Shown: positions 4,634-63,379 of the stretch, one piece after another
Layout of the letters: every line of letters begins with the position of its first letter
How positions within the stretch are numbered: the stretch's first letter is position 1
Assembly (NCBI GenBank): GCA_045627805.1
Contig: JAZQOJ010000152.1
Coordinates: forward strand, 1-63,379
From: Bacteroidales bacterium
GTDB lineage: Bacteria > Bacteroidota > Bacteroidia > Bacteroidales > WCHB1-69
Length of the DNA: 63,379 nucleotides
Reading direction: 5' to 3'
Made by a program: the position numbers and the translations under genes
The notes under the pieces: model-generated
What the model saw: the letters and a program-made list of their open reading frames with translations, nothing else
Databases searched by the model: none
What the model was told of the DNA's origin: nothing

Positions 4634-6598
4634 ATGGATAAAAATACCATCATCGGACTGCTCCTCATCTTTGGTTTGTTCCTCGGCTACAGCTTTTATT
4701 CCAGCAAACAGACACGCAAGCAGCGCGAAATTCAAATGAAAGAGGCGGAAGCCAAAGCGGAAAAAGCAGCGAAGGAAAACAAGCAAACCACAGTCCAGCT
4801 GGCTGACTCTCTCAAAAAAGAGGCCGCTATCGCACAAAACTCTGTCGCCGCCTCGGCTCCTCGCTCCGCCTTCAGTTATGTTAACAAAGAAAAGAAGAAC
4901 GACTATGTGGTAAAAACCAACAAAGGCGAATACCACTTCTCGCGCATCGGCGGTTATGTTAACTTTGTGAAACTCAATGATGTATATCAATACTCGCCCA
5001 AAGGTCAGCCCAAAGAGGAACTCGTTTTGGTGAACGAAAAGTCATCGGTGATGTCAATGGAACTGATGTGTCAGGACTCTTCGTCCACCCGCATCCAGAC
5101 CCGGAACTGCTATTTCAACTGCGCCACCGACACGCTGCTCGTAAGCAAGGGCGAAAAGCAATTGTGCCTCCGTCTCTATCCCTACCAGAAAGCCGACTCG
5201 GCTGCCGGCTACACGAACCAACTCGACAGCAGCGCCTATTTGGAATACGTTTACACTTTCTCGGCCGACAACTACAAGTTCGACTACACGGTTCATTTTG
5301 TGAATCTCTCGAAATACCTGGCTCGGAAAAGCAACAACCAGTACGTTCTCAACTGGAACGCCGACATCAACAACGTGGAGAAAAACTACGACTACGAGCG
5401 CGACAACACCACGCTTTTCTATATGGATAACCTCGATGAAGTGGACAACCTCGACGAGCGCAAGTCCGACAAGAAAGACTTCTCCACGGGCTTGAAATGG
5501 ATTTCCTTCAAACAGCAGTTCTTCACCTCGACGATAATTGCAAAAGAAAAAGCGTTCAATCGCGGTCATTTGGAAGTGGATGCTCCCAATCTGAATAAGA
5601 AAAAAGGCGAACGCCCGGCCGACCCGCTTCTCAAAAAGATGACCGCCAATATGAATTTCGAGATCCGGGATATGGACAAGGACGCCTTCAATATGAGTCT
5701 GTACTTCGGTCCCAACCAGTACAAGTTGCTGGAGCCCTACGATCTGGGCTTGGAACGCCAGGTTCCGCTGGGATGGGGATTCTTCCTCCTTCATTGGATC
5801 AACCGTGGCGTCATCATTCCCATCTTCAACTGGCTGGAGGCATACGGTTTGAGTTACGGCATCATCATCTTGATTTTGAGTTTCTTCATCAAAATCGTCA
5901 TTATGCCGCTCTCTTACAAAACGTACCTCTCGTCGGCCAAGATGAGGGTGCTGAAACCGCAGATTGAAGAACTCAGCAAGCGCTATCCGAAACAGGAAGA
6001 CGCGATGAAGAAACAGCAGGCCACGATGACACTTTACAAAAAAGCGGGCGTAAGTCCCACTGCGGGTTGCCTCCCGATGCTCATCCAGATGCCGATCCTC
6101 ATCGCAATGTTCCGCTTCTTCCCTGCCGCTTACGAGTTGCGCCAGCAGCCATTCCTTTGGGCAGAAGACCTCTCCACTTACGACTCCATCCTCGACTTCA
6201 GCTTCAATATCCCGTTCTACGGCGATCACGTCAGCTTGTTCACCCTCCTGATGACCGTCGCCACCATCGTTTATACCTGGCTCAACAACAAACTGATGTC
6301 AGCTGGCAACGACGACCAGATGAAGGCAATGCGCGTGATGATGTACATTATGCCTATCCTTTTCCTCGGAATGTTCAACAGCTTCTCATCCGCACTCACC
6401 TATTATTACCTCCTCATCAACCTCATCACATTCCTCCAAATGTGGATTTTCAGAATGGCCATCAATGAGAAAAAACTTCAAGACCAGATGGCTGCCAATA
6501 TGGTGAAACCGGTGAAGAAGTCGAAATGGCAGATGCGAATGGAAGAGATGATGAAGCAGCAGCAGCAATTGCAACAGCAGCAAAAAGGTCGCAAATAA
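4634..6598 (+). CDS. yidC: membrane protein insertase YidC (long Bacteroidota form)
   Basis: 654 aa with an N-terminal TM helix, a large periplasmic domain and a C-terminal 60-kDa insertase core (GCLPMLIQMPILIAMFRFF). Confidence 0.9.
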   Translation: MDKNTIIGLLLIFGLFLGYSFYSSKQTRKQREIQMKEAEAKAEKAAKENKQTTVQLADSLKKEAAIAQNSVAASAPRSAFSYVNKEKKNDYVVKTNKGEYHFSRIGGYVNFVKLNDVYQYSPKGQPKEELVLVNEKSSVMSMELMCQDSSSTRIQTRNCYFNCATDTLLVSKGEKQLCLRLYPYQKADSAAGYTNQLDSSAYLEYVYTFSADNYKFDYTVHFVNLSKYLARKSNNQYVLNWNADINNVEKNYDYERDNTTLFYMDNLDEVDNLDERKSDKKDFSTGLKWISFKQQFFTSTIIAKEKAFNRGHLEVDAPNLNKKKGERPADPLLKKMTANMNFEIRDMDKDAFNMSLYFGPNQYKLLEPYDLGLERQVPLGWGFFLLHWINRGVIIPIFNWLEAYGLSYGIIILILSFFIKIVIMPLSYKTYLSSAKMRVLKPQIEELSKRYPKQEDAMKKQQATMTLYKKAGVSPTAGCLPMLIQMPILIAMFRFFPAAYELRQQPFLWAEDLSTYDSILDFSFNIPFYGDHVSLFTLLMTVATIVYTWLNNKLMSAGNDDQMKAMRVMMYIMPILFLGMFNSFSSALTYYYLLINLITFLQMWIFRMAINEKKLQDQMAANMVKPVKKSKWQMRMEEMMKQQQQLQQQQKGRK

Positions 6599-11650: not shown

Positions 11651-13654
11651 ATGACTTTACAAGAATTTCAAAAAGACTTAATGCAGGGAATTCCAGCAGA
11701 ATTGCCCACTCCAAAACCTTATGATACCTCCATCAACCACGCTCCCAAGCGTAAAGATATCTTGACTCCTGCCGAAAAGCAATTGGCTTTGCGCAACGCA
11801 TTGCGTTATTTTGATCCGAAATTCCACGCTGTGCTGGCACCCGAATTTGCGGAAGAGTTGCATCGTTACGGCCGCATTTATATGTATCGTTTCCGTCCCG
11901 ACTACGAGATGTATGCGCGCCCCATCGAGCAGTATCCGGCCAAATGCAAGCAGGCCGCTGCCATTATGCTGATGATCCAGAACAACCTGGACCCCGCCGT
12001 GGCGCAGCATCCCCACGAACTGATCACTTACGGCGGCAACGGCGCCGTTTTCCAGAACTGGGCGCAGTACCGCCTCGTGATGAAATATCTTTCGGAAATG
12101 ACCGACGAGCAGACCCTCGTGATGTACTCCGGACATCCGCTGGGGCTCTTCCCCTCGCACAAGGACGCTCCCCGCGTGGTGGTGACCAACGGTATGGTGA
12201 TTCCCAATTATTCAAAACCCGACCATTGGGAAAAATTCAATGCGATGGGTGTCAGCCAGTACGGTCAGATGACTGCTGGCTCGTATATGTACATCGGACC
12301 GCAGGGCATCGTTCACGGCACTACTATTACGGTGCTCAACGCTTCCCGCAAGATTGGTGGCGGCGCTGCTGGAAAACTTTTCATCACTGCCGGTTTGGGT
12401 GGTATGTCGGGTGCTCAGCCCAAGGCAGGCGACATCGCTGGCGTGGTCTCCATTACTGCTGAAATCAATCCGAGCGCAACGCAAAAGCGCTTTACTCAGG
12501 GCTGGGTGGATGAGGTCCACGAAAACCTCGACGAACTGTTTGTGGCAGTCAACAAAGCCCGAGAAGCCAAGGTCGCTCGCTCCTTCGCCTATCAGGGCAA
12601 TATCGTTGACTTGTGGGAATATTGCGCCGCAAACAACATTCAGGTTGACCTCGGCTCCGACCAGACCTCTTTGCACAATCCGTGGGCGGGCGGTTATTAT
12701 CCCGTAGGCCACTCGTTTGAGGAATCCAAGGTGATGATGGCAGAGGAACCCGAAAAGTTCAAGGCAGCTGTACAAGAAAGTTTGCGTCGTCAGGTGGCCG
12801 CCATCAACAAGTTGACTGCCAAGGGAATGTATTTCTTTGATTATGGCAATGCCTTCCTTTTGGAATCCAGCCGTGCGGGTGCCGACGTGATGAAGCCCGA
12901 CGGAACTTTCCGCTATCCTTCTTACGTTCAGGATATTATGGGACCTATGTGTTTCGACTACGGTTTCGGGCCTTTCCGCTGGGTTTGCGCCTCTGGAAAA
13001 CCCGAAGACTTGGCCGTTACCGACGAACTGGCATTGGAAGTGCTCCGCAAGCTGAGTGCCGAAGCACCGGCGGAAATCAAGCAGCAGATGCAAGACAATA
13101 TCACTTGGATTGAAGGCGCCCAAGAAAACCATCTCGTGGTGGGTTCGCAGGCCCGAATCCTGTATGCTGACGAGCAGGGCCGTGTGCAAATCGCATTGGC
13201 CTTCAACAAAGCCATCCGCGAGGGCCGTCTGACGGGTCCCGTCGTACTGGGCCGCGACCATCACGATGTGTCGGGCACTGACAGTCCGTTCCGCGAAACC
13301 TCCAACATTTACGACGGTTCGTCGTTCACCGCTGATATGGCCGTGCAAAATGTGATTGGCGACTCCTTCCGTGGTGCCACTTGGGTGAGCATTCACAATG
13401 GCGGCGGAGTTGGCTGGGGCGAAGTAATGAACGGTGGTTTCGGTATGGTTCTCGATGGCAGTGCCGATGCTGACCGCCGTATCCAGTGTATGCTTTACTG
13501 GGACGTGAACAACGGCATCACCCGCCGTGCGTGGGCTCGCAACGATGGCGCCTTGTTTGCCATCAAGCGCGCGATGTCGCTCAATCCCAACCTGAAAGTT
13601 ACTATCCCTAACTTCGCTGATGACGAAATCATCCGCCAAGCATTTGAAAATTAG
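11651..13654 (+). CDS. hutU: urocanate hydratase
   Basis: 667 aa with GLGGMSGAQP NAD-binding region and overall urocanase-like sequence (ITYGGNG, GPFRWVC). Confidence 0.9.
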   Translation: MTLQEFQKDLMQGIPAELPTPKPYDTSINHAPKRKDILTPAEKQLALRNALRYFDPKFHAVLAPEFAEELHRYGRIYMYRFRPDYEMYARPIEQYPAKCKQAAAIMLMIQNNLDPAVAQHPHELITYGGNGAVFQNWAQYRLVMKYLSEMTDEQTLVMYSGHPLGLFPSHKDAPRVVVTNGMVIPNYSKPDHWEKFNAMGVSQYGQMTAGSYMYIGPQGIVHGTTITVLNASRKIGGGAAGKLFITAGLGGMSGAQPKAGDIAGVVSITAEINPSATQKRFTQGWVDEVHENLDELFVAVNKAREAKVARSFAYQGNIVDLWEYCAANNIQVDLGSDQTSLHNPWAGGYYPVGHSFEESKVMMAEEPEKFKAAVQESLRRQVAAINKLTAKGMYFFDYGNAFLLESSRAGADVMKPDGTFRYPSYVQDIMGPMCFDYGFGPFRWVCASGKPEDLAVTDELALEVLRKLSAEAPAEIKQQMQDNITWIEGAQENHLVVGSQARILYADEQGRVQIALAFNKAIREGRLTGPVVLGRDHHDVSGTDSPFRETSNIYDGSSFTADMAVQNVIGDSFRGATWVSIHNGGGVGWGEVMNGGFGMVLDGSADADRRIQCMLYWDVNNGITRRAWARNDGALFAIKRAMSLNPNLKVTIPNFADDEIIRQAFEN

Positions 13655-13707
13655 TTTACAATCGTTGGGATGTGACATTCTGCATCCCAACATTATTTTT
13701 AACAACA

Positions 13708-14320: not shown

Positions 14321-14354
14321 AAAAAGACGGAATCATTTCCGTCTTTTTATTTTG
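14321..14354 (+). terminator. rho-independent terminator
   Basis: Stem aaaaagacgg / ccgtcttttt followed by T-rich tract. Confidence 0.7.
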
Positions 14355-14365
14355 GAAATATTACT

Positions 14366-14422
14366 TTTCATCTTGTAAATGCCGCAATGATTGGAGCGAG
14401 ATGTTCGCATAATGGGAATTAT
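14366..14422. repeat. 57-nt inverted repeat, left arm (partner 20901-20957)
   Basis: tttcatcttgtaaatgccgcaatgatTggagcgagatgttcgcataatgggaattat equals the reverse complement of 20901-20957 with one mismatch (56/57). Confidence 0.95.
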
Positions 14423-14650
14423 GAGACGTGGAAACGGTTAACGTCGGTTAAACGGTTAATGGGATGAAGGGACGAAGGGCTTAATTGTTGAGAAACGAGA
14501 ACAGAAAGTTGAGAACTGAGGTTTTAGATTTTGTTTGAACAGTGAAATGGATGAAGGCCGCCTGCGGCGGAAACAAGAAATGTGCAGGAAATTTCGAGGA
14601 AATGATCAGGAAAATGCGGATGATTTCCCCCTTATCGAAGCCCTAAAATT
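14409..14650 (+). repeat. MITE-like unit 'D': terminal inverted repeats around a purine-rich brick module (M)
   Basis: The left end is ATAATGGGAATT (14409-14420) and the right end is ATTTCCCCCTTAT (14623-35), followed by cgaagccctaaaatt. The interior is homologous to 20388-20525 in the same orientation. Confidence 0.8.
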
Positions 14651-14666
14651 AAACTTATGAATCCGC

Positions 14667-14703
14667 AATAAAAAATCCCGCGGTGAGATTCACTGCGGGA
14701 TTT
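14667..14703 (-). terminator. rho-independent terminator of the giant surface-protein gene
   Basis: On the minus strand: stem aaatcccgc / gcgggattt followed by TTTTTTATT. A second imperfect palindrome (14715-14754) lies directly after the stop codon. Confidence 0.65.
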
Positions 14704-14757
14704 AACTTTATATAATATTGTAGAAACGTTGCATTGCAACGCCTCTACAATATATTG

Positions 14758-17700
14758 TTATCTCTTCACAACTTTTACAGTCGTGGTAGCATTGTTGTTG
14801 GCGATGCGGATCATATAAACGCCAGGAGCAACGTTGCTGAGGTTGAGTTCAGTGCGTTCGCTCTGGATGGTGGTGTTCATAATCACCTTGCCAAACATAT
14901 CGTAAACGCTGAGGTTTGCACCGATGGCGCTGCATTCAACGTTCACAACATTGTGAGCAGGATTCGGATAAACATTGGCAGCGATTGCGTAATTGTGGAT
15001 GCCAATGGTAGTGTCGGCGAAAGTGAATTCAACGGCTTCGCTCCAATCGGAGGTGTTGTCTTCGTCGCAGATGGCTTGAACCATAACGGTAACAACGGTG
15101 CTGTCTTCCAAACCTTCGAAAGTGTAGGTGTTGCCAGCCACCTCAACGGTGGTGGTATCTTCAGCCACGATGTACATCAGGTTGAAGTTTTCAGCTTCGC
15201 TTTCCCAAGTAGCGATGTTGTTTTCAACGGTTACGTTAGCGGGAACTTCGCAAGGTTCAACTACAGGTTCGGTGGTGAAAGTGAATTCAACGGCTTCGCT
15301 CCAATCGGAGGTGTTGTCTTCGCCGCAGATGGCTTGAACCATAACGGTAACAACGGTGCTGTCTTCCAAACCTTCGAAGGTGTAGGTGTTGCCGGCGACT
15401 TCTACGGTGGTGGTGTCTTCAGCAACAACATACATCAGATTGAAGTTTTCAGCTTCGCTTTCCCAAGTAGCGATGTTGTTTTCAACGGTTACGTTGGCGG
15501 GAACTTCGCAAGGTTCATTCGCAAAAATGTTGATGTCATCCAAATAGACGTTGTTGCCATCCATACCTACGCCTCTGAAAGCGATTCGATAAGCGGAAGT
15601 AGGATTGGGCAGCTGATAAGTAGCCACATCATAATCTTCCATCGGGGTGGTGAAAGAAGCGATCAGATTCCAAGTCGTATCTTCCTCAGTTGTATAGTAA
15701 ACATACAGTTGGTCGCAGGTGCCTTCCCAGTTATTGGTCCAATATGCGAAAGAGAGTTCCGGATTTTGCACCTGTGAAAGATCGAAAACGGGAGAAATCA
15801 GCAATCCCTCATTGTTTTCATAGTAGGGGAATCCTACTGCATAGTCGCCTTCATAAGCTGTCTCATTAAATCCCCAGTTGTGGGTGCCTGCAAGTTGCAT
15901 AACTCCCCAGCAAATAATGTCTTCTTCCCAACCTTCGTGGTAAGGTTGGTCGTAGGTTACAACCACCACGTCGGCACATTCGGTAGCGATTTCTGTTCCT
16001 GCGGTCCAGTATGACTGATCTTCATCGGAGCAGTATGCACGAACGGAAACAGTGTAAACGGTGGCGGCCTCCAAGCCAGTGATAGTAAACGGATGAGCCG
16101 ACACGAGGGTGGTGTCGCCATTGCAAGCAACCTGCCACTGTGTTTCGTCGCCGGCAGGAGTCCAGTCAACTACTGCGCTGTTGGCAGTGGTCAGGGAATC
16201 AACGATTACGACATCAGTGGGTTTGAAACAGGTGGGAGTTTCGCCAACCATCACATCATCCAAAAAGATGTAGGAATCATAATAACTACTACCACAATTG
16301 CTGATGCCCTTGAAGATGAACATTACATTGGTAGCATTGGCCAAAGCCGGAACTGCGATTTCTTCGGTGGTCCAATCGGCAGCGCCTTGCAAACCGGTTG
16401 CAATGGGCGTATAGGTAGAACTGTCGGTGGTGTACATATCTTCAAAGCCCTGAGCTGCAGCAGGATTCTTGTGCGTGAAGGTGATCATAGGATTGTTGAT
16501 GACGGTCAAATCCAGAACGGGAGTCTTCAGCAAGCTGTACTGACCAGAACTGGGATTGTAGGAGTTGAATCTTACGCAATGACCGGTCACGCCAGTGGCA
16601 TAATAATTCCATCTGTAAGAAGCATTAGTAACGGTTCCTTCTGCATTATCCCAACAGGAGGGGATGCCGGAAGTGAGGGTATTGAAATCTTCAGCAAATG
16701 GATTGTTTGCAGTTACAACTACAGTTTCACATTCGGTGGTGAAGGAAGCGGTAGTGCTCCAATATGATTCGTCTTCTTCAGAGCAGATAGCTTTCACTTT
16801 TACAGTGTAGCTGGTAGCTGCATCCAAACCAGTGAGGGTGAAAGGATTGTCATTTGCTTCGTATTCGGTACCGTTTGCATCAATGATCCAAGCGTTTTCG
16901 GTGCCACCGTTGGTCCAAGCGATGTCGGCAGTGTGAGCCGTGATGTTGCTAACGGTAACTCCGGTCGGTTTCGGGCAGGTGGGTGTTTCATCAACGATTA
17001 CATTATCCATATAGGTAGGATTTCCGTACTGTGATTCACCTTGGAAGATGATGTAATTCACGCCCGTAGCGGTGATGGGCAATTCGTAGGTGTACCAACC
17101 CGTACTGGTTTCCGCACCCACGATGTTTGAGTTAACGGTAGAGGCAACGGTGCAGTTGCGGCTGATGAATGCCAATTCGGTGGCATTTGCGTTCACTTCA
17201 GGTTCGCTATTGACGAAAATGCGGATGCCTTCATTGGGGGAAGATGTGCCGGAAGTATTTCTATACACGTCAACGGAAAGGAAGTAACCATTTTCGTAAG
17301 TGAAATCCATTGCGCCTGTTACGAGAGCGTGGACACTACCTGCGCGCGTGTCGCGCAATTGTGCCTGTGCGGTACTGTTGTCTCCATTGGTGGAAGTATA
17401 GCGTGCCCAAGCGCCATCAGGATAGTCAATGCCATAGAAATATCCGCTATTGCCTTCGCTTGTTCTCGATTGCGACCAGCAAATGGGTGGGAATGTAGTG
17501 GCTTCAAAATCTTGAACGTAGGGGAAGGTAGTATTGATTTCACATTCAGTGGTGAAGGAAGCGGTAGCGCTCCAGTCTGATTCTTCTTCTTCAGAGCAGA
17601 TAGCTTTCACTTTTACAGTGTAGATGGTAGCTGCATCCAAACCAGAGAGGGTGAAAGGATTGTCATTTGCTTCGTATTCGGTACCGTTTGCATCAATGAT

Positions 17701-20178
17701 CCAAGCGTTTTCGGAGCCACCGTTGGTCCAAGCGATGTCGGCGGAAGTGGTGGTAATGTTGCTAACGGTAACTGCGGTCGGTTTCGGACAAGCGGGCGCC
17801 ATAGTAACCACAAGATTGTCGATACCGCAATCATAGTAGGAATTTGAAGTTTCTTCCCATTGGAAGGCGATTCTTGCGCCAGCGGGAATGGTGCTGGGGA
17901 TGATGATTTCGGCATTTGCTGCAGAAGTACTACTGGTTACACTGCTAGCAGAAACGAAAGAGGCAACATCGTCCAAATCGGTTACATAGCCAACAGACAA
18001 AGTTCCCTGTGTGGCACTTTCCATTCTGTAAGTAAAAGTAACAATAGCATTTTGCGGATTCGTAAATTCCGGAAGATAAGCGATGTTGATGGTACCGCAG
18101 TTTTGACTAGGATTGCCGCCAGAGCGGAAGTTGAGACCTTTGCTGCTTGTGGGAACATACGAAGTAGAGACACGAGGGAGCGTATTGGCATTACTGCCAT
18201 TGGAGATCGTTCCCCAGCAGATGGGAATAACACCATTGGCGTTATTTTGGTAAGTCGCTGTATAGCTGTCGAAGTTTTCGCTATAGGGTTCGGTTTCAGT
18301 AAGCGCGAAAGCTTCACATTCAGTTACGAAAGTCGTGGTGGTGCTCCAAGCGGATTCATCATCGGCATCGCAGTTAGCTTTCACCTTTATGGTGTAGCTC
18401 GTAGAAGGATTCAAACCAGTGAGGTTGAACGGATTGGTAGTAGCAGCGATTTCGGTGCCGTTGTAGTCAATCGTCCAAGCGTTTTCTTCGCCGCCATTGG
18501 TCCAAGCGATGTCGGCGGAAGTGGTGGTAATGTTGCTAACAGTAACTGCGGTCGGAGCCGGGCAGGAAGGAGGCGTGATGAAAGAAGCGGTAGCACTCCA
18601 GTCTGATTCGTCATTAGCCGCGCAATTGGCCTTCACTTTAACAGTATAAGAAGTTTCAGGAGTCAAGCCAGTCAAAGTGAACGGATTGGTAGCAGCGATT
18701 TCGGTGCCGTTGTAGTCAATCGTCCAAGCGTTTTCTTCGCCGCCATTGGTCCAAGCGATGTCGGCGGTATGAGCGGTAATGTTGCTAACGGTAACTTCGG
18801 TCGGTTTCGGGCAGGTGGGAGCTGCGCCAATCATTACATCGTCCAAGTAAATGTAGTCATCACCATAGCCACAGTTGCTGATGCCCTTGAAGATGAACAT
18901 TACGTTGGTAGCATTGGCCAAAGCCGGAACTACGATTTCTTCGGTGGTCCAATTGGCCGCGCCTTGCAAACCGGTTGCAATGGGCGTATAGGTAGAACCG
19001 TCGGTGGTGTACATAACTTCAAATCCCTGAGCTGCAGCAGGATTCTTGTGCGTGAAGGTGATCATAGGATTGTTGATGGCGGTCAAATCCAAAACGGGAG
19101 TCTTCAGCAAGCTGTACTGACCAGAAGCGGGATAGTAGGAGTTGAATCTTACGCAATGACCGGTCACGCCAGTGGCATAATAATTCCATCTGTAAGAAGC
19201 AGTAGTAACGGTTCCTTCTGCATTATCCCAACAGGAGGGGATGCCGGAAGAGATAGAGTTGAAGTCTTCGGTGAAGGGGGTGGATTCGGTAACCACAGTG
19301 CTGCTGCAGAGCGTGGTGAACAAGACACCGGGAGTGGTATATTCGGATTCTTCAGCACCGCCGCAAACGGCTTTAACGCTTGCAACATAATTGGTGTTGG
19401 GGGTCAAACTGGTAACGGTGTAGGAGGGAGTTCCACTTACGGGGTATTCGTCATCGTTGATTTTAACAACCCAGTCGGTTTCGGTATTGCCGGGGGTCCA
19501 GGTAACGGTGGCACCATTGGAAGTGATGTTGGAAACCACCAAATTGGTAGGAGTGAGACAGCCGTGAAGTTCGTCAACGGTAAAGGTGGTCTTCGGGATG
19601 AAGTCTTGAATAACTGTATTCCAAGAATTTATATTAAAAACAATATTTTCTAAGGATTCATCATCGTACCCATAAATTGCAGCATCGTTAATCGTTTGCC
19701 CATAGAAGTATGCACTCTTATAGGTTCCCGGAGTGGTATTGTGAATGGTAACCAGCAAATTACCACCCTGGTAGGTGTAAGGCGTATCGAAAATGATTTC
19801 CATAGTTTCTCCCGTTCCGTTAAGAGAACCTTCATAAACCATTGTCGCGCTGCTCACATCACTAAAAGATGAGATAATTGAGCTCGCAACTTCCTGCAAA
19901 TACACCTTGAAATGAGCAATTCCCCAACCAGCGGCAGCAGGAGTACTCAGATAATAGGTCAATTTTGAAATGTTGCTGCCGTTCATAGCCGTGAGGTGGT
20001 CGGCCGGAATGACATATTCACATTTCAAGTAGTTATCGCAGTAGACTCCATAAACTGGAATATAGCTGCTGGTGCTCGTGCCGTCGTAAACGGTGTAGTT
20101 CACCTGCGCTCCAGCCGTGCCGATACTGCCGACTAACAGCGTCGCAATAAATGCGAACATTAATAAAACTTTTTTCAT
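14758..20178 (-). CDS. giant T9SS-secreted surface protein with multiple FN3-like and MAM/choice-of-anchor-like modules
   Basis: 1806 aa with an N-terminal signal peptide. At least 7 FN3-like units of the form C(P/F)(K/A)PT.VTVSNIT...W... are present. The C-terminal VYPNPAHNVVNV...GVYMIRI...VKVVKR is a typical Por/T9SS sorting domain. Confidence 0.9.
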   Translation of the reverse strand: MKKVLLMFAFIATLLVGSIGTAGAQVNYTVYDGTSTSSYIPVYGVYCDNYLKCEYVIPADHLTAMNGSNISKLTYYLSTPAAAGWGIAHFKVYLQEVASSIISSFSDVSSATMVYEGSLNGTGETMEIIFDTPYTYQGGNLLVTIHNTTPGTYKSAYFYGQTINDAAIYGYDDESLENIVFNINSWNTVIQDFIPKTTFTVDELHGCLTPTNLVVSNITSNGATVTWTPGNTETDWVVKINDDEYPVSGTPSYTVTSLTPNTNYVASVKAVCGGAEESEYTTPGVLFTTLCSSTVVTESTPFTEDFNSISSGIPSCWDNAEGTVTTASYRWNYYATGVTGHCVRFNSYYPASGQYSLLKTPVLDLTAINNPMITFTHKNPAAAQGFEVMYTTDGSTYTPIATGLQGAANWTTEEIVVPALANATNVMFIFKGISNCGYGDDYIYLDDVMIGAAPTCPKPTEVTVSNITAHTADIAWTNGGEENAWTIDYNGTEIAATNPFTLTGLTPETSYTVKVKANCAANDESDWSATASFITPPSCPAPTAVTVSNITTTSADIAWTNGGEENAWTIDYNGTEIAATTNPFNLTGLNPSTSYTIKVKANCDADDESAWSTTTTFVTECEAFALTETEPYSENFDSYTATYQNNANGVIPICWGTISNGSNANTLPRVSTSYVPTSSKGLNFRSGGNPSQNCGTINIAYLPEFTNPQNAIVTFTYRMESATQGTLSVGYVTDLDDVASFVSASSVTSSTSAANAEIIIPSTIPAGARIAFQWEETSNSYYDCGIDNLVVTMAPACPKPTAVTVSNITTTSADIAWTNGGSENAWIIDANGTEYEANDNPFTLSGLDAATIYTVKVKAICSEEEESDWSATASFTTECEINTTFPYVQDFEATTFPPICWSQSRTSEGNSGYFYGIDYPDGAWARYTSTNGDNSTAQAQLRDTRAGSVHALVTGAMDFTYENGYFLSVDVYRNTSGTSSPNEGIRIFVNSEPEVNANATELAFISRNCTVASTVNSNIVGAETSTGWYTYELPITATGVNYIIFQGESQYGNPTYMDNVIVDETPTCPKPTGVTVSNITAHTADIAWTNGGTENAWIIDANGTEYEANDNPFTLTGLDAATSYTVKVKAICSEEDESYWSTTASFTTECETVVVTANNPFAEDFNTLTSGIPSCWDNAEGTVTNASYRWNYYATGVTGHCVRFNSYNPSSGQYSLLKTPVLDLTVINNPMITFTHKNPAAAQGFEDMYTTDSSTYTPIATGLQGAADWTTEEIAVPALANATNVMFIFKGISNCGSSYYDSYIFLDDVMVGETPTCFKPTDVVIVDSLTTANSAVVDWTPAGDETQWQVACNGDTTLVSAHPFTITGLEAATVYTVSVRAYCSDEDQSYWTAGTEIATECADVVVVTYDQPYHEGWEEDIICWGVMQLAGTHNWGFNETAYEGDYAVGFPYYENNEGLLISPVFDLSQVQNPELSFAYWTNNWEGTCDQLYVYYTTEEDTTWNLIASFTTPMEDYDVATYQLPNPTSAYRIAFRGVGMDGNNVYLDDINIFANEPCEVPANVTVENNIATWESEAENFNLMYVVAEDTTTVEVAGNTYTFEGLEDSTVVTVMVQAICGEDNTSDWSEAVEFTFTTEPVVEPCEVPANVTVENNIATWESEAENFNLMYIVAEDTTTVEVAGNTYTFEGLEDSTVVTVMVQAICDEDNTSDWSEAVEFTFADTTIGIHNYAIAANVYPNPAHNVVNVECSAIGANLSVYDMFGKVIMNTTIQSERTELNLSNVAPGVYMIRIANNNATTTVKVVKR
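15019..15516 (-). repeat. intragenic tandem duplication (2 x 240 nt, 258-nt period)
   Basis: 15019-15258 and 15277-15516 are near-identical. Both encode EPCEVPANVTVENNIATWESEAENFNLMY.VAEDTTTVEVAGNTYTFEGLEDSTVVTVMVQAIC.EDNTSDWSEAVEFTF. Confidence 0.9.
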
Positions 20179-20254
20179 AAGAAATTGGTTTTGGTTAATA
20201 AATAGGTTGATTAATAAGTTGTTATAAATTTTCTGAAATTATCTTTTAATTCCG

Positions 20255-20262
20255 CAAAGATA
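20255..20262 (-). promoter_or_regulatory. -7 box TAnnTTTG (tatctttg on minus strand) for the giant gene
   Basis: The plus strand reads caaagata. It sits in a very AT-rich tract about 77 nt upstream of the ATG at 20178. Confidence 0.55.
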
Positions 20263-20374
20263 CTAAAATTTTTTATAAGTATTAAATTTTTTGTAAAAGA
20301 AATATTTAATAATATTTAAAAATTTATCCCTTTTGGTCTTGTTGATTTGTATGCTGAAATTTTAGAATCTTCCG

Positions 20375-20914
20375 ATAAGGGGAATTGTGAGACGTGGAAA
20401 CGGTTAACGTGGTTAAACGGTTAATGGGATGAATGGACGAAGGGACGAATGGTGGAAAGGACGAATGCCGCCTGCGGCGTGATAGAGGAAATTATCAGGA
20501 AATTTCAAGGAAATGATCAGGAAATTCTTCTTTTTCTTGCTGTTTCATAATGAAATAACAATAGTGAAAACGTGCTGGCTGCGGCCATCAATTGTTTTCC
20601 ACAATGAAGTTGTTGCGCCGTAGTCACATCCGGGAAGGATGTGACACCTATAACCCCACATAAGGACGAAGTCCGCGATGTGGGGTGAGCGAGCGTGTGC
20701 CAACACCTGGCATCTCGGAGAGATGCTACTAAAAGGTGTCGCACCTCTCCGAGGTTGTGCTCGCTGCAAGACAAAATGATGCAGCTCCGTTTTCTTTTAA
20801 TGAGCAACTTTCTTTTTCTCAAGAAAAAAAAGAAAGTTGAACAGCTGTGAACTGACAATTCGGGATTTGCGATGTGTTGAGAGGTAATTCCGCAGTGCGG
20901 ATAATTCCCATTAT
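20375..20914 (+). repeat. composite MITE-like unit 'U': TIR + brick module M + structured element R1 + inverted TIR
   Basis: The left end is ATAAGGGGAATT (20375-86), preceded by aaattttagaatcttccg. The right end is ATAATTCCCATTAT (20901-14). The interior is M (20388-20525), a spacer, then R1 (20587-20900). Confidence 0.8.
20587..20900 (+). ncRNA. candidate structured non-coding element R1, copy A (unclassified)
   Basis: A chain of 6 hairpins. It is homologous to the reverse complement of 62990-63379, with one compensatory change and loop-only changes between the copies. No conserved ORF. Confidence 0.5.
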
Positions 20915-20957
20915 GCGAACATCTCGCTCCCATCATTGCGGCATTTACAAGATGAAA
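20901..20957. repeat. 57-nt inverted repeat, right arm (partner 14366-14422)
   Basis: Its reverse complement matches 14366-14422 at 56/57 positions. Confidence 0.95.
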
Positions 20958-21068
20958 GGGGATAATTCCGTTTTTTATTCAGAAAACTTCGGGCAGCTCC
21001 CGATATTGGGAATGGTGGGTGTGTTGAATATAGACAGAAATCGGGTTCATTTTCTCGCAATATTATTG

Positions 21069-21076
21069 TATCTTTG
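21069..21076 (+). promoter_or_regulatory. -7 box TAnnTTTG (tatctttg)
   Basis: Exact motif 40 nt upstream of the ATG at 21116. Confidence 0.55.
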
Positions 21077-21115
21077 CCGAAAATTTTCTATTAAGAATTA
21101 AAAAATAAAAATAAG

Positions 21116-21880
21116 ATGAAAAAAATCTTGACTTTATGTTTATGTGCTTGTGTAGCAGTATTTTTTATGTCTTGTGAAGGAGACAAACTCACCCGCAAAA
21201 GAATCCAGGAAGATATCGCTGGTTCGTGGAAAAAGGTGCAAGAAGACGGCAAATTGGTGCCCACCAATGACAAAGTCGTATGTTCTTTCGATGGAATTGA
21301 CCACGCAGTCATCTCGGCAGTGCAGCAGAACGGCTATTGGTCGGGCCGCACGCCAATGAGTTACTCTGTAAAAGGCACAAAAGTGATTCTGGAAAACCAG
21401 GATGTGCATTACAAGTCGGAATGGGACCTGAGTTCCCTGACGAACGATGTATTCTCTGTGCGCCAAAGTATGACCTACGATGCCAATGGCGAAGTTGCAG
21501 GTCATTCCAATAATGCTGTGTATGAAAAGGTTAGCAACGATTTTACCAATGCTATCATTGGTACGTGGGAAGGCGTTTCTTTCGAGGGCGAAGTATCGCA
21601 CGGCTACATCGATCACCGTTGGGAATTCCGCAACGACCACACCTACACCTATTATATGAAAGAGGGTGACAACTGGGTGGAAGGCACCAACACGCTCAAC
21701 GAATATTTCGTTGACTGCGACTTTCTGGCTTTCCGCTGGAAAGATGCCGATGGCAACGAATTCCGCGAAATGTGGGACATCGAATCCTGCAACTCCACAC
21801 AAATGGTGTGGACCGCTTTGCGCGTAGATGCCAACAAAAACACCTACACCACCAAGTTTGTAATGAACAAGGTTCACTAA
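21116..21880 (+). CDS. hypothetical lipoprotein (lipocalin-like?)
   Basis: Signal peptide plus lipobox (VAVFFMSCEGD). W/Y-rich beta-type sequence. Confidence 0.6.
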   Translation: MKKILTLCLCACVAVFFMSCEGDKLTRKRIQEDIAGSWKKVQEDGKLVPTNDKVVCSFDGIDHAVISAVQQNGYWSGRTPMSYSVKGTKVILENQDVHYKSEWDLSSLTNDVFSVRQSMTYDANGEVAGHSNNAVYEKVSNDFTNAIIGTWEGVSFEGEVSHGYIDHRWEFRNDHTYTYYMKEGDNWVEGTNTLNEYFVDCDFLAFRWKDADGNEFREMWDIESCNSTQMVWTALRVDANKNTYTTKFVMNKVH

Positions 21881-21959
21881 TTCGTTTTTCGCAAACCGAA
21901 GAATTCATTGACTTGCAATGGTGGATTAGTGTTGAAAATGAATTAATTACAAATTGATA

Positions 21960-22646
21960 ATGAAGAAGTTAGTATTCCTTACGGGTGCTGGCGTGAGTGC
22001 GGAAAGCGGAATCAAGACCTTCCGCGACAGCGACGGACTTTGGGAAAATTACAAGGTGGAAGAGGTCGCCACGATTGATGCCTGGTCGTGGAACGCCCGA
22101 GTGATGGTGGACTTTTACAATGCCCGCCGTCGGGAAGTCCGCGACGCACAGCCCAATGCGGCGCACCAAATGATTGGCGAGTTGCAGAAGGATTTCGATG
22201 TTACCGTTATCACCCAGAACATTGACAACCTGCACGAAAGGGGCGGCGCCAACCACGTCATCCACTTGCACGGAGAAATCACGAAAGTGTGCAGTGAGAG
22301 AGGCAAGCGTTATGTGCAAGACATTGGTTACCAGGACCAAATATTCGGAGAGAAGGCAGAAGACGGCCAGTTGCTGCGCCCGTTCATCGTATGGTTTGGG
22401 GAAGACGTTCCGCTGCTTGCGAAAGCCGCCGAGGTGGTGGAGCAGGCCGACATCCTGGTGGTGATTGGCACCTCGCTCAACGTGTATCCCGCTGCGTCGC
22501 TCATCTATTATGCGCCCGCCAATTGCCCCATCTACCTTATTGATCCCAAAGAGGTTGACACACATTCTGCGCGCGTCACCTTCATTCAGAAACCCGCTAC
22601 CGAAGGTATGCGAATGTTGAAAGATATTTTGTTGCAATGCAAATAA
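21960..22646 (+). CDS. cobB: Sir2-family NAD-dependent protein deacylase
   Basis: GAGVSAESGIKTFRD, TQNIDNLHERGG and HG..... motifs. ATG 21960 preferred over the TTG at 21954. Confidence 0.85.
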   Translation: MKKLVFLTGAGVSAESGIKTFRDSDGLWENYKVEEVATIDAWSWNARVMVDFYNARRREVRDAQPNAAHQMIGELQKDFDVTVITQNIDNLHERGGANHVIHLHGEITKVCSERGKRYVQDIGYQDQIFGEKAEDGQLLRPFIVWFGEDVPLLAKAAEVVEQADILVVIGTSLNVYPAASLIYYAPANCPIYLIDPKEVDTHSARVTFIQKPATEGMRMLKDILLQCK

Positions 22647-23401
22647 CCCTCTTAGGCACAGGAACTTCGCAAGGAATTCCCATCATTGGATGCACTTGTC
22701 CCGTGTGTACCAGCACCGACGTGCGCGACCAACGGCTGCGCACCTCCGCGTTAGTGAGCGTGGATGGGCTCAACATTCTCATTGATGCCGGTCCCGACTT
22801 GCGGCAGCAGTTGCTCCGCAGCCACACCACTCGCCTCAATGCCGTGCTGTTCACCCACGAGCACAAAGATCACACCGCCGGACTCGACGACGTGCGGCCC
22901 ATCAATTTCCTGATGAAGGAAACCCTCAACATTTACGCAATGCCCCGCGTGATTCGCGTGCTGCACCGCGACTACGACTACGCCTTCCGCACTGTCAAGT
23001 ATCCTGGGGTGCCCACTCTGGAGCTCAATCCCATTAAGTCGGAGCCGTTTATGGTGCAAAATGTGGAAATCATTCCCATCCGCGTGCGCCATATGTCGCT
23101 CCCCATTTTCGGCTATCGCATCCGCAACTTCGCCTACATTACCGATGCCAGCTTCATTGCTCCATCGGAAATGAAAAAACTGCAAAATCTTGATACATTG
23201 GTGATTAATGCGTTGCGTATGGAAGAACACTATTCTCATTTCAACCTTGCGCAAGCCCTGTCCATCATTGAGCAACTGAAACCGCGGCAGGCCTTTCTCA
23301 CGCACATCAGCCACGATATGGGACTTTACGCCGAAACGGAAAGGAAATTGCCGCAAAATGTCTTTTTAGGCATTGACAATCAAATCATTAACATAGAATA
23401 A
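22637..23401 (+). CDS. MBL-fold metallo-hydrolase (PhnP-like)
   Basis: GTGTSQGIP..GC.CP.C followed by THEHKDHTAGLDD (HxHxDH variant). Confidence 0.8.
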   Translation: MQITLLGTGTSQGIPIIGCTCPVCTSTDVRDQRLRTSALVSVDGLNILIDAGPDLRQQLLRSHTTRLNAVLFTHEHKDHTAGLDDVRPINFLMKETLNIYAMPRVIRVLHRDYDYAFRTVKYPGVPTLELNPIKSEPFMVQNVEIIPIRVRHMSLPIFGYRIRNFAYITDASFIAPSEMKKLQNLDTLVINALRMEEHYSHFNLAQALSIIEQLKPRQAFLTHISHDMGLYAETERKLPQNVFLGIDNQIINIE

Positions 23402-23410
23402 ACGAGATTT

Positions 23411-24562
23411 ATGGTCGATTACGATGCTTATCCGTCGCCGTGCTACATTATGTACGAAGAGGCGCTGGAAGCCAATTTGCAACTTCTTGATTTAGTACAG
23501 CAAAGTGCCAACGTGTCCATCATTTGCGCGCTTAAGGGCTTCGCTTTCTGGAATGCCTTTCCGCTGGTTCGGCAATACTTGAGCGGCGCCACGGCCAGTT
23601 CGCTCAACGAAGCGCGCCTGATTTCGGAGGAAATGGGTTGCGATGCGCACACTTACGCCCCCGTATATTTCGACAACGAATGGCGCGACATTATGCTTTA
23701 CAGCAGCCATATCACGTTCAACTCTCTGTCGCAATGGGACAAGTACCGCCAGTCGATACAAGAATTTCCCAAAAAAATAAGTTGTGGTTTGCGCGTGAAT
23801 CCCGAGTACTCGGAAGTGAAAACGGAGTTGTATAATCCGGCACGTCCCGGCTCCCGATTGGGAATCTTGGCCGCCCATATGCCCGAACATCTTCCACAAG
23901 GTATTGAGGGACTGCATTTTCACGCATTATGTGAAAACAATAGTCACGCTTTGGAGAACTGCTTGCACGCCTTTGAAGAAAGATTCGGCACGCTGATTCG
24001 CGAATGCCGCTGGGTGAATCTGGGTGGGGGACACCTCATCACCGAGAAGAACTACGACATCCCGCACCTGATTCAAATCCTGCAAGATTTCCGGAAACGC
24101 TATCCCAACCTTGAAGAGGTGATTCTGGAACCCGGCGAGGCGGTGGGCTGGCAAACGGGCGTACTGACCTCTACTGTGGAAGATATCGTTGAAAACAAAG
24201 GCATTAAGATTGCAATGCTCAATGTGTCTTTCGCCTGCCATATGCCCGACTGCCTTGAAATGCCCTACAAGCCGACCGTTTTGGGCGCAACCGACCCCAC
24301 CGAGAACAGCCCGTTTGTTTACCGTCTGGGCGGATGCTCCTGCCTCGCCGGCGATTTTATGGGAATGGGCGACTACGCCTTCCCCGAACCGCTGGAAATC
24401 GGCGACAAAATCGTGTTCGACGATATGATCCATTACACAATGGTGAAAACCACTTTCTTCAACGGCATCCAACATCCCTCCATCGGAGTGGTGCGCAAAA
24501 ACGGCGACTTCGAGCTGCTTTCTCAACCCGACTATGCCGCCTATAAATCAAAACTCGGTTAA
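23411..24562 (+). CDS. nspC: carboxynorspermidine decarboxylase
   Basis: 383 aa with alanine-racemase-fold decarboxylase motifs (GLHFH, NLGGGH, CLAGD). Overall similarity to NspC is recalled from memory. Confidence 0.8.
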   Translation: MVDYDAYPSPCYIMYEEALEANLQLLDLVQQSANVSIICALKGFAFWNAFPLVRQYLSGATASSLNEARLISEEMGCDAHTYAPVYFDNEWRDIMLYSSHITFNSLSQWDKYRQSIQEFPKKISCGLRVNPEYSEVKTELYNPARPGSRLGILAAHMPEHLPQGIEGLHFHALCENNSHALENCLHAFEERFGTLIRECRWVNLGGGHLITEKNYDIPHLIQILQDFRKRYPNLEEVILEPGEAVGWQTGVLTSTVEDIVENKGIKIAMLNVSFACHMPDCLEMPYKPTVLGATDPTENSPFVYRLGGCSCLAGDFMGMGDYAFPEPLEIGDKIVFDDMIHYTMVKTTFFNGIQHPSIGVVRKNGDFELLSQPDYAAYKSKLG

Positions 24563-25524: not shown

Positions 25525-25602
25525 AATCATCACTTTCCCATCTTGATATTTTGCTTGATGAAACTGTAGGCGCAACCTTTCCACTATTCCCCTTATCGGA
25601 AG
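25524..25602 (+). repeat. minimal member of the repeat family (L-like box + inverted terminal motif)
   Basis: gaatcatcactttcccatcttgatatttt resembles the L box ggaattatcccctttcatcttgtaaat. ATTCCCCTTATCGGAAG (25586-25602) is identical to the terminal motif at 20370-20386 (reverse complement). Confidence 0.7.
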
Positions 25603-25673
25603 CTGCCTGGAGTTTTCTAAATAAAAATTGCGAAGAATCTTACTCCGATTGAACTTTTAATCGTAACTTTGCC

Positions 25674-62851: not shown

Positions 62852-62989
62852 AACGGAATTATTTCCTTTCATCTTGTAAATGATATTAGTGAACAGTGAT
62901 CAGTGAACAGTGATTTGATTAAGGGGAAGTCGCAAGTCTTGTTGATTGATACGCCGAGAATTTTAGGAACTTCAGATAAGGGGAACTAT
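62852..62989 (+). repeat. repeat-family flank: L box + variant spacer (with 14-nt tandem) + terminal motif
   Basis: aacggaattatttcctttcatcttgtaaatg (62852-62882) matches the reverse complement of 20942-20972. There is a tandem agtgaacagtgatc/agtgaacagtgatt at 62888-62915. The segment ends with gagaattttaggaacttcagATAAGGGGAACTat. Confidence 0.85.
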
Positions 62990-63379
62990 CCGCACTGCGG
63001 AATTCCCGCTCAACACATCGCAAATCCCGAATTGCTAGATCGCGGCTGTTCAACTTTCTTTTTTTCTTGAGAAAAAGAAAGCTACTTATTGAAAGAAAAC
63101 GGAGTCGCATCATTTTGTCTTGCAGCGATAACAACCTCGGAGAGGTTGGATTCCTATAACCCCAGATAAGTGTAGCGCAATCTGGGGAGGAGAGCGCCAC
63201 TGGAGAAAGGCACCTCGGAGAGGTGCGACACCGCTTAGTAGCATCTCTACGAGATGCCGGATGTCGGCACGCGTTCGCCCACCCCACATCGCGGACTTCG
63301 TCCTTATGTGGGGTTATAGGTGTCACATCCTTCCTGGATGTGACGGTGGCGCCACATCTTGATTGTGGAAAACAATGAT
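62990..63379 (-). ncRNA. candidate structured non-coding element R1, copy B (inverted relative to copy A; runs into window edge)
   Basis: Its reverse complement aligns with 20587-20900. It carries an extra 78-nt module bounded by the 12-nt direct repeat cctcggagaggt (63135-46 and 63213-24). Confidence 0.5.

What the first reader, a model, noticed from the sequence alone, without database searches (positions are those of the whole stretch)
14409..14650. Shared terminal sequence (CTTCG)ATAAKGGGAAYT bounds alternative cargo modules: a MITE-like family with no transposase in view
Seen: the same terminal motif occurs at 14409-20 (ataatgggaatt), 14623-40 (inverted, atttcccccttatcgaag), 20369-86 (cttccgataaggggaatt), 20901-14 (inverted, ataattcccattat), 25586-602 (inverted) and 62973-87 (cagataaggggaact). 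Directly inside the motif the sequence is either module M (gagacgtggaaacgg..., at 14423 and 20389) or element R1 (ccgcactgcggaatt..., at 62990 and the reverse complement of 20900). All four combinations of motif variant (ATAATGGG or ATAAGGGG) and cargo (M or R1) are present. Unit D (14409-14650) is TIR-M-TIR, about 230 nt. Unit U (20375-20914) is TIR-M-spacer-R1-TIR, 540 nt. Outside the motif a further conserved tail (..gaagNNtctaaaatt) is seen at three ends. I see no clean target-site duplications. Inference: these are non-autonomous, modular mobile or recombinogenic elements whose enzyme (a transposase or site-specific recombinase acting at the GGGAAYTRT junction) is encoded elsewhere. The build from iterated short units is reminiscent of the 'BrickBuilt' MITEs reported in Porphyromonas gingivalis. 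That comparison is from memory only and no sequence relationship is claimed.
Basis: partly seen in the sequence, partly recalled or inferred. Interest (0 to 1): 0.65.

Follow-up and report, generated by a model that had tools for sequence, protein, structure and literature searches.

The report
Modular MITE-like repeat family, Bacteroidales
The motif is real, but it lies about 55 bases inside the true ends of a high-copy, gene-less, modular repeat family in an uncultured gut Bacteroidales bacterium; this looks like a new but fairly ordinary miniature transposon-like (MITE-like) element whose mobilising enzyme was not found.

Summary
It is followed by module M or module R1 in all four combinations. 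It is not the terminus. It is the inner edge of a ~68-nt end module whose outer edge, (A)CRGAATTATCCCYTTTCRTCTTGT, is the real boundary.

Contig depth from gut metagenomes steps from 4-9 in the flanks to 100-5900 inside. The steps fall at 14353/4, about 20320, 20974/5 and 62853/4.

The recurrent full-length form is End>M-linker-R1<End, about 650 nt. It is seen at window 20319-20970 and again in an independent contig, L201. Unit D, a compact 228-nt element in a related strain and a 136-nt form at the D locus in another strain are shorter derivatives.

D's right "TIR" (14623-40) is not supported. Elements are intergenic, non-coding and carry variable microsatellites. The D locus is polymorphic between strains.

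No transposase or recombinase is encoded in the window. I saw no target-site duplication and no clean empty site, and I have no RNA data.

Best reading: a non-autonomous MITE-like family (confidence 0.55). It is not BrickBuilt, whose TIR differs. Interest is modest.

The parts
14354..14420 (+). Unit D, left end module (type A).
   Evidence: 93% inverted match to 20901-20969. nhmmer E=2e-19. Depth steps from 9 to 54 to 320 at 14354.
14421..14615 (+). Unit D, module M. Purine-rich (67% A+G). Contains arrays (AAACGGTT)~3, (GGGACGAA)~2.4 and (GAAATGTTCAG)~3.4 (same 11-nt array type as (AGGAAATNATC) in unit U), plus the GC hairpin GCCGCCTGCGGCG.
   Evidence: Matches 20387-20524 at 84-91%. Depth up to 5900 against 9 in the flank.
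14616..14650 (-). Unit D, right edge. Gapped, weak inverted copy of the inner motif (atttcccccttatcgaag) plus ctaaaatt. Not a recognisable end module; may be partly flank.
   Evidence: Gapped ~20-nt alignment only. No profile hit. Single-copy depth from 14626. An AAAATTA-like flank is also present in the X14 strain.
20319..20386 (+). Unit U, left end module (type B). Degenerate outer TIR AAAATTTATCCCTTTTGGTCTTGT; motif ATAAGGGGAATT at 20375-86.
   Evidence: arms 20324-42 and 20947-65, 84%; E=5e-14. Depth rises at 20324. Aligns with the L201 end CAGAATTATCCCTTTTCGTCTTG.
20387..20530 (+). Unit U, module M, with arrays (AAACGGTT)3, (GGGACGAA)5 and (AGGAAATNATC)3.7 and the GC hairpin.
   Evidence: Depth 450-1830 against 4-9.
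20531..20590 (+). Unit U, linker between M and R1: T-rich stretch and small hairpin TTTCATAATGAAA. Also present in L196 and L201.
20560..20900 (-). Unit U, module R1. Hairpin-rich, read on the minus strand; the 5' limit is approximate and overlaps the linker. About 90% identical to 62988-63379 and to L201. Lacks a 78-nt hairpin module that the other two carry.
   Evidence: Fold z=-7.4. 4 of 108 pairs show compensatory changes in 3 copies. ORFs are not conserved between copies.
20901..20970 (-). Unit U, right end module (type A, inverted). Outer TIR CGGAATTATCCCCTTTCATCTTGTAAATG; motif at 20903-14.
   Evidence: E=2e-21. Depth drops from 630-700 to 15 at 20975.
62852..62882 (+). Unit E, outer part of a type A end module (AACGGAATTATTTCCTTTCATCTTGTAAATG).
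   Evidence: Depth steps from 7-10 to 260-290 at 62854.
62883..62935 (+). Unit E, 7/14-nt microsatellite (GTGAACA GTGATCA)n plus GATTAAGGGGAAGTCGCAA. Length-polymorphic between strains (an extra CAGTGAT at 62893).
62936..62987 (+). Unit E, inner part of a type B end module (it lacks its outer TIR). Motif ATAAGGGGAACT at 62976-87.
   Evidence: E=2e-8. Other copies carry ACAGAATGATCCCTTTTC in front of 62936 (loose ends).
62988..63379 (+). Unit E, module R1. It runs off the end of the window, which is itself a whole contig that ends inside the repeat.
   Evidence: (the longest contig carrying P0001 is 63379 nt).
25581..25627 (-). 47-nt low-copy repeat, 85% identical to 20972-21018. It carries a motif-like CTTCCGATAAGGGGAATA next to a small GC hairpin. 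Possibly a relic of an end module.
   Evidence: nhmmer E=0.023. Depth about single-copy.

Best explanation
The finding is part of a family of non-autonomous, MITE-like interspersed elements in an uncultured gut Bacteroidales bacterium.

Anatomy. A full-length copy is about 650-730 nt and has the form End>M-linker-R1<End.
- The two ~68-nt end modules are inverted with respect to each other. They come in two sequence subtypes, A and B.
- Their outer 20-30 nt, (A)CRGAATTATCCCYTTTCRTCTTGT, form the imperfect terminal inverted repeat.
GGAATTAYC recurs at the outer terminus, at the inner edge and again 17 nt into R1.
- One arm carries M, a purine-rich stretch made of three short tandem arrays and a GC hairpin.
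- The other arm carries R1, about 340-420 nt of stacked hairpins.
- Shorter copies (unit D, the 228-nt element in L196, the 136-nt form in the X14 strain) are internal-deletion or rearranged derivatives.

Inferred, not shown. A transposase encoded elsewhere in the genome binds the outer repeat, and perhaps the inner one, and moves the elements into AT-rich intergenic DNA next to terminators and promoters. After insertion the arrays expand and contract by slippage, and copies recombine with each other, which gives the mosaic of subtypes and cargos.
For: Multi-copy with sharp boundaries:
- Logan contig depth is 4-9 in flanking genes and 100-5900 in the modules. It steps at 14353/4, about 20320, 20974/5 and 62853/4.
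- In run X14 the flanks are at about 23 and the modules at 300-1000.
- Short-read contigs break at the repeat edges, and the window contig itself ends inside R1.

Inverted ends:
- U: 20324-42 against 20947-65 is 84% complementary, and 20367-86 against 20903-22 is 80%. The whole end modules align in inverted orientation.
- L196 element: GGGATTATTCCCTTTAATC on the left and GATGAAGGCGGATAATTCCG on the right.
- The outer terminus is far above chance: 2 hits against 0.03 expected.

Other points:
- The same composite recurs in the independent contig L201: B end, R1, linker, reverse-complement M.
- All copies are intergenic. R1 reading frames are not conserved between copies.
- No transposase or recombinase is present among about 50 ORFs.
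- Strain polymorphism at the D locus: between the same two terminators the window has A end + M, while the X14 strain has a 136-nt member in the opposite orientation.
- Module-level indels of 77-91 and 280-310 nt occur among copies.
- Flanks of many copies are unrelated and AT-rich (loose ends).
Against: - No target-site duplication is visible at the two elements with both ends (U and L196), and there is no consistent flank motif beyond AT-richness.
- No clean empty site was found, and no autonomous element with the same ends.
- Scans of plasmids, phages and viral contigs found nothing, and the species-representative genomes gave only scattered singletons.
- The TIRs are imperfect (74-84%).
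- The copy number comes from summed contig k-mer depth in mixed communities. Related species may contribute to it, and the tandem arrays inflate it.
- The D-locus difference could come from recombination between resident copies rather than from new insertions.
Confidence: 0.55

Rival explanations
1. A BIME/BOX-type mosaic intergenic repeat that is no longer, or never was, moved by a transposase. The modules spread and are reshuffled by homologous recombination, gene conversion and slippage. They persist because they serve the host, for example as protein-binding arrays with 8-nt and 11-nt phasing, as terminator or mRNA-stabilising hairpins, or as nucleoid-organising sites.
For: - The build is mosaic, with interchangeable subtypes and cargos.
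- No TSD and no partner enzyme were found.
- The AGGAAAT array has an 11-nt period and the other two arrays an 8-nt period.
- A separate CGGTTAA palindromic array sits at a gene's 3' end, outside any element.
- Elements lie next to terminators and promoters.
- R1 hairpins show compensatory changes.
Against: - The boundaries are sharp, lie at inverted ~20-30-nt termini and are flanked by unrelated DNA.
- A compact 228-nt copy keeps both termini while losing most of its interior. That pattern is expected of elements selected for their ends.
- Reaching tens to hundreds of dispersed copies is hard without a dispersal mechanism.
Confidence: 0.25
2. A family of small-RNA genes or cis-regulatory units. 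The end module supplies a promoter, the motif lies at or near the transcript's 5' end, and M (GGA-rich) and R1 (hairpin-rich) are alternative RNA bodies.
For: - In type B ends, TTGTTGA, a 17-nt spacer and TAGAAT lie just upstream of the motif (read by eye).
- R1 folds with z=-7.4.
- Pair 298/304 runs A-U, G-C and G-U across the three copies, which favours RNA on the E(+) strand.
- M is 67% purine, with repeated AGGAAAT and GGACGAA.
- Known MITEs such as Correia and BrickBuilt carry promoters (PMC10969869, PMC4596501).
Against: - No RNA run holds the sequence, so transcription is untested.
- The promoter-like hexamers are absent from type A ends.
- I found no Bacteroidetes-type TAnnTTTG box conserved in the module. 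Neighbouring genes keep their own TAnnTTTG boxes in the flank.
- There is no Rfam match.
- M and the end modules are not significantly structured (z from -1.7 to +0.6).
- R1 folds equally well on both strands.
- This reading does not explain the inverted termini. It is compatible with the elements also being mobile.
Confidence: 0.12
3. A local duplication or a regulatory site confined to the few loci in this window.
For: Only three loci are visible in the 63 kb window. The species-representative genome scan gave only chance singletons.
Against: - Depth is 15-700 times the flanks in eight independent metagenome runs.
- Copies with unrelated flanks exist in L196 and L201 and in many loose ends.
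Confidence: 0.02

Closest known systems
BrickBuilt MITE of Porphyromonas gingivalis (Klein et al. 2015, PMC4596501)
   Same: - Host in the order Bacteroidales.
- Strictly intergenic, with no transposase.
- Unique leader and tail segments enclose short tandem repeats whose number varies.
- Located close to neighbouring genes.
   Different: - BrickBuilt's TIR is GAGACCTTTGCA (IS5-type, matching ISPg1/ISPg9). Here it is CRGAATTATCCCYTTTC.
- BrickBuilt carries one 23-nt repeat. Here there are three different 8-11-nt arrays plus a ~400-nt hairpin module.
- No sequence similarity.
- Copy number here appears much higher.
BOX elements of Streptococcus pneumoniae (boxA-boxB(n)-boxC) and E. coli BIMEs
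   Same: - Modular mosaic of a few sequence modules in variable number and combination.
- About 100 or more intergenic copies.
- Predicted stable secondary structure.
- No known dedicated enzyme.
   Different: - Unrelated hosts and sequences.
- BOX and BIME have no ~68-nt inverted end modules of this kind.
- REP units are 35-40-nt GC-rich palindromes associated with RAYT transposases, and none is seen here.
Correia (CREE/NEMIS) elements of Neisseria and ERIC elements
   Same: - TIR-bounded, 100-250-nt, high-copy intergenic elements.
- They lie close to promoters and terminators, have full-length and internally deleted forms, and are transcribed into structured RNA.
   Different: - Correia has 26-nt near-perfect TIRs and a TA duplication, and it is about 150 nt long.
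- Here the TIRs are imperfect, no TSD is seen, full-length copies are about 650 nt, and the two arms carry different cargo.

Membership tests
MITE (prokaryotic miniature inverted-repeat transposable element; criteria as in PMC10969869 and PMC4596501) | Small size (about 50-1000 bp) with no transposase coding capacity | tested here: met
   Copies are 136-656 nt. ORFs inside R1 are not conserved between copies.
MITE (prokaryotic miniature inverted-repeat transposable element; criteria as in PMC10969869 and PMC4596501) | Terminal inverted repeats | tested here: met
   U has 19-nt arms at 84%, and its whole end modules align inverted. L196 has ~19-nt arms at 74%. The repeats are imperfect. Unit D has only one end.
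MITE (prokaryotic miniature inverted-repeat transposable element; criteria as in PMC10969869 and PMC4596501) | Target-site duplication flanking the element | tested here: not met
   No direct repeat flanks U (…taatattta | … | tttttattc) or the L196 element (…attttttct | … | taaataaaa). Only two complete copies were available, so this is weak negative evidence.
MITE (prokaryotic miniature inverted-repeat transposable element; criteria as in PMC10969869 and PMC4596501) | Multiple dispersed copies per genome, mostly intergenic | tested here: met
   Depth ratios of about 15-700 over the flanks. Three intergenic loci in the window plus L196 and L201. Caveat: these are metagenomic depths, not a closed genome.
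MITE (prokaryotic miniature inverted-repeat transposable element; criteria as in PMC10969869 and PMC4596501) | Ends shared with an autonomous IS that supplies the transposase | tested here: inconclusive
   None in the window. No match in plasmids, phages or viral contigs. The genome of origin could not be searched: it is not among the species representatives.
MITE (prokaryotic miniature inverted-repeat transposable element; criteria as in PMC10969869 and PMC4596501) | Insertion polymorphism (occupied against empty sites) | tested here: inconclusive
   The D locus carries different family members in the window and in the X14 strain. No empty site was recovered.
BrickBuilt (P. gingivalis) | TIR GAGACCTTTGCA / TGCAAAGGTCTC and a 23-nt tandem repeat core | tested here: not met
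   The termini here are CRGAATTATCCC..., and the arrays have 8-nt and 11-nt units. BrickBuilt features are taken from PMC4596501.
REP/BIME (RAYT-associated) | 35-40-nt GC-rich imperfect palindromes with a conserved 5' GTAG-type tetranucleotide, and a RAYT gene in the genome | tested here: not met
   End modules show no significant hairpin (z from -0.5 to +0.6). There is no Y1 transposase in the window. The defining features are from my own knowledge of the family.
Any described RNA family (Rfam 15) | Covariance-model match at or near the gathering score | tested here: not met
   Only two tRNAs pass in the whole window. The best hits in 20150-21150 are 13-17 bits with E above 1.

The most novel reading that the evidence does not exclude
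R1 is not filler. It would be a functional, structured RNA of about 340-420 nt carried by the mobile element, for example a guide or scaffold RNA for a trans-encoded RNA-guided recombinase or nuclease, in the manner of IS110 bridge RNAs or IscB/TnpB omega RNAs. The conserved motif GGGAAYTATCCGCACTGCGGAATT would mark its 5' end. The family would then be a non-autonomous carrier of such an RNA, present in tens of copies per genome.
Probability: 0.06. Interest if true: 0.8.

Novelty: new member of a known kind. Interest (0 to 1): 0.35.

Why it matters
If the reading is right, this is an undescribed high-copy MITE-like family in an uncultured herbivore-gut Bacteroidales lineage. Practical and biological consequences:
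- It breaks short-read assemblies. Contigs stop at its edges, and the window contig itself ends in R1.
- It places inverted 69-nt repeats (93% identical) on either side of a 6.5-kb stretch that holds a large T9SS surface-protein gene. That could permit inversion of the stretch.
- It inserts hairpin-rich and protein-site-like arrays next to promoters and terminators.
- It provides strain-level markers through length-variable arrays.

It does not open a long-standing question. Its asymmetric two-cargo build, and the possibility that R1 is a functional RNA, are the only unusual points.

Tried and rejected
- Scan of 185,579 species-representative genomes with CTTCNGATAAGGGGAAYT. It returned 73 singletons in unrelated taxa. 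No genome had two hits, and the window's own two sites were not returned, so the source genome is not in that set.
- Scan of metagenome contigs with the outer terminus CTTTCATCTTGTAAATG. In hindsight the pattern was too short.
- Viral-contig scans with M, both terminus types and the R1 core: 0 hits.
- Distant blastn against plasmids and phages: no match.
- Fishing for other copies through spurious ORFs. The R1 ORF gave one extra copy (P0002/P0003, giving L201). P0002's own 15-kb contig could not be fetched. A 1054-aa chimeric query of all open frames found nothing.
- Three guesses at the start of the lipoprotein gene next to unit E found no recorded gene.
- RNA evidence: no RNA run holds the sequence.
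- End module as a hairpin (IS200/IS605-like or REP-like): not supported by folding.
- End module as a promoter: sigma-70-like hexamers occur only in subtype B, and no conserved Bacteroidetes TAnnTTTG box was seen by eye. Left as a minor rival.
- Rfam, at gathering and at permissive thresholds: nothing.
- Search for insertion polymorphisms in 21100-41000: none. That stretch has no high-copy repeat.

Full report
**1. What is at the coordinates**

The motif ATAAKGGGAAYT is present at 14409-20 (+), 20375-86 (+), 20903-14 (-) and 62976-87 (+), and with one mismatch at 25585-96 (-). In total there are 8 matches at up to one mismatch, against 1.07 expected, and none of 100 shuffles reaches 8. The other three matches (22675, 31182, 43435) lie inside the ORFs at 22637-23401, 30825-31577 and 42176-44053 (mutL) and look like chance.

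Immediately inside the motif the sequence is either GAGACGTGGAAACGG... (module M, at 14423 and 20389) or CCGCACTGCGGAATT... (module R1, at 62990 and on the reverse complement of 20900). Both motif variants occur with both cargos. A fifth instance in another contig has ATAATGGG with R1 behind a type B end.

**2. The motif is not the end of the repeat**

Similarity continues about 55 nt outside the motif:
- 14354-14422 is 93% complementary to 20901-20969.
- 14354-81 recurs at 62855-82.
- 20336-84 matches 62936-85.

A multiple alignment shows that these are two subtypes, A and B, of one ~68-nt "end module".

I laid Logan contigs from gut and horse metagenome runs on the window to locate the boundaries.
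- Flanking genes have depth 4-9.
- Depth jumps at 14353/4, about 20320, 20974/5 and 62853/4.
- Inside, it reaches 100-5900.
- In run X14 the flanks are at about 23 and the modules at 300-1000.
- Short-read contigs stop at these edges. The window, which is itself a whole 63,379-nt contig, ends inside R1.

A profile of the end module finds 14353-14421 (+), 20320-20387 (+), 20902-20970 (-), the outer half at 62853-93 and the inner half at 62936-88. It gives a marginal hit at 25586-606.

It lies where depth has already fallen to single-copy level.

**3. Anatomy of the family**

Unit U (20319-20970, 652 nt) reads as follows:
- End(B), then M.
- A linker with a T-rich stretch and the hairpin TTTCATAATGAAA.
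- R1 and End(A), both in inverted orientation.

Its end modules are inverted repeats: outer arms 84%, inner arms 80%.

The same composite appears in the independent 624-nt ENA contig L201. That contig reads unrelated flank, CAGAATTATCCCTTTTCGTCTTGTTGA...GATAATGGGAATT, R1, linker and reverse-complement M, and then it ends. End>M-linker-R1<End is therefore a recurrent full-length form, not a chance juxtaposition.

M is 67% purine. It consists of (AAACGGTT)~3, (GGGACGAA)2.4-5, a GC hairpin and (AGGAAATNATC)~3.5. Other copies differ in unit number and carry other arrays, such as ACGAGAAC (loose ends) and GAGAATT/GAAAATT.

R1 is a stack of hairpins.
- Fold z is -7.4, and -6.6 on the other strand.
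- The copies in unit E and in L201 carry an extra 78-nt hairpin module.
- Contigs from other copies show 77-91-nt and about 280-310-nt module indels.
- In an RNAalifold consensus of the three copies, 4 of 108 pairs keep pairing through changes on both sides. One of them runs A-U, G-C and G-U. With three sequences this is only suggestive.
- Reading frames through R1 are not conserved between copies, so R1 is non-coding.
- There is no Rfam match.

Shorter members exist:
- A related strain (lipocalin-like neighbour 85% identical) carries a compact element of about 228 nt in L196 (249-476). It has a left end module, a 7-nt array, the GC hairpin, two AGGAAAT units, the linker and a right terminus GATGAAGGCGGATAATTCCG.
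- Unit D (14354 to about 14643) has End(A)+M and then a poor right edge.
- Unit E starts with the outer half of an A end, followed by a 7/14-nt microsatellite, then the inner half of a B end and R1.

The depth profile agrees with the existence of many partial members. End modules, the M start and the first ~50 nt of R1 are several-fold more abundant than the R1 body.

**4. Context and mobility**

All copies are intergenic.
- D lies between two convergent terminators.
- U lies between the divergent starts of a 1806-aa FN3/MAM/T9SS protein gene and a lipocalin-like gene.
- E lies 79 nt upstream of a putative lipoprotein gene.

Neighbouring genes keep their own TAnnTTTG boxes in the flank (read by eye). 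T9SS sorting domains and a homologue named from a Bacteroidales MAG place the host in Bacteroidales.

About 50 ORFs in the window are housekeeping genes or have no Pfam match, and none is a transposase or recombinase.

One locus differs between strains. In run X14 a 2388-nt contig joins the upstream terminator (up to 14335) to the following, in order:
- CTATTCTTTT.
- GATAAGCCTTCAC.
- The first ~50 nt of R1 plus an A end, in the orientation opposite to D and ending ...GATAATTCCG.
- 23 nt of flank.
- The downstream terminator at 14670.

The same intergenic site therefore holds different family members in two strains. This fits either independent insertion or recombination between copies.

I found no empty site and no target-site duplication at the two copies with both ends. 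Flanks are simply AT-rich. The stretch 21100-41000 has no high-copy repeat and no insertion polymorphism in four runs.

**5. Searches elsewhere**

- The species-representative genome scan returned only chance singletons and not the window itself.
- Viral contigs, plasmids and phages gave nothing.
- No RNA run holds the sequence.

**6. Interpretation**

The best-supported reading is a non-autonomous, MITE-like transposable element family with imperfect 20-30-nt TIRs. GGAATTAYC recurs at the outer terminus, at the inner edge and 17 nt into R1. That pattern is what one expects of repeated transposase-binding sites, but this is inference.

Of the usual MITE criteria (PMC10969869, PMC4596501):
- Met: size, lack of coding capacity, TIRs, copy number and intergenic location.
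- Not met: a TSD, on only two complete copies.
- Undecided: a partner IS and empty sites.

The rivals are a BIME/BOX-like mosaic repeat kept for host functions and reshuffled by recombination, and a family of sRNA or regulatory units. Neither excludes mobility. A purely local duplication is excluded.

The element is not BrickBuilt. That MITE has GAGACCTTTGCA IS5-type TIRs and a single 23-nt repeat. The likeness is architectural only.

**7. Verdict**

This is a new member of a known kind, of modest interest (0.35). The one reading that would raise it, R1 as a functional RNA carried by the element, is not excluded but has little support (about 6%).

Noticed in passing
window 14354-14422 and 20901-20969, flanking 14758-20178 (-): Two end modules, 69 nt long and 93% complementary, sit in inverted orientation on either side of a 1806-aa FN3/MAM/T9SS surface-protein gene. 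Recombination between them would invert the 6.5-kb segment. In run X14 a joint '14409 to 20942, opposite strands' was listed, but it may come from another copy of the repeat.
   Followed up: partly
window 24563-24625: An intergenic imperfect palindrome is built from the same CGGTTAA(A)CG unit as the first array of module M (CTCGGTTAAATGTGAAAACGGTTAAACG ... CGCTTAACCGAAATTAACCGCTTAACCG). It lies outside any element, at the 3' end of the ORF at 23411-24562. Run X5 has an 18-nt insertion (CGCTTAACCGAAATTAAC) at 24593, so its length varies between strains.
   Followed up: partly
window 20972-21018 and 25581-25627: A 47-nt repeat, 85% identical and in inverted orientation, carries a motif-like CTYCCGATAWKGGGAAT next to a small GC hairpin (TCGGGCAGCTCCCGA). 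Its depth is about single-copy. It may be a relic of an end module or a separate small repeat.
   Followed up: partly
window 62883-62915: A 7-nt-unit microsatellite (GTGAACA/GTGATCA) lies inside unit E. Contigs in runs X2, X5 and X14 carry one more unit (CAGTGAT inserted at 62893).
   Followed up: no
window 14758-20178 (-): The 1806-aa gene contains long internal direct repeats (about 774-813-nt spacing at 88-95% identity, and a 300-nt pair 2577 nt apart at 96%). Metagenome contigs show joints between the repeats, which suggests repeat-number variation in this surface protein.
   Followed up: no
window 13653-13706: In runs X2 and X14, contigs replace 52 nt of the urocanase/PNP-like intergenic region, which holds a hairpin at 13664-91. 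The replacement is 152 nt in X2 (length not known for X14).
   Followed up: no
window 63379 (end) and loci L074/L075: The window is a complete contig that ends inside R1. Short-read contigs of other samples begin or end at 14395, 14584, 20378 and 20947. The repeat family is therefore a systematic cause of assembly breaks in this lineage.
   Followed up: yes
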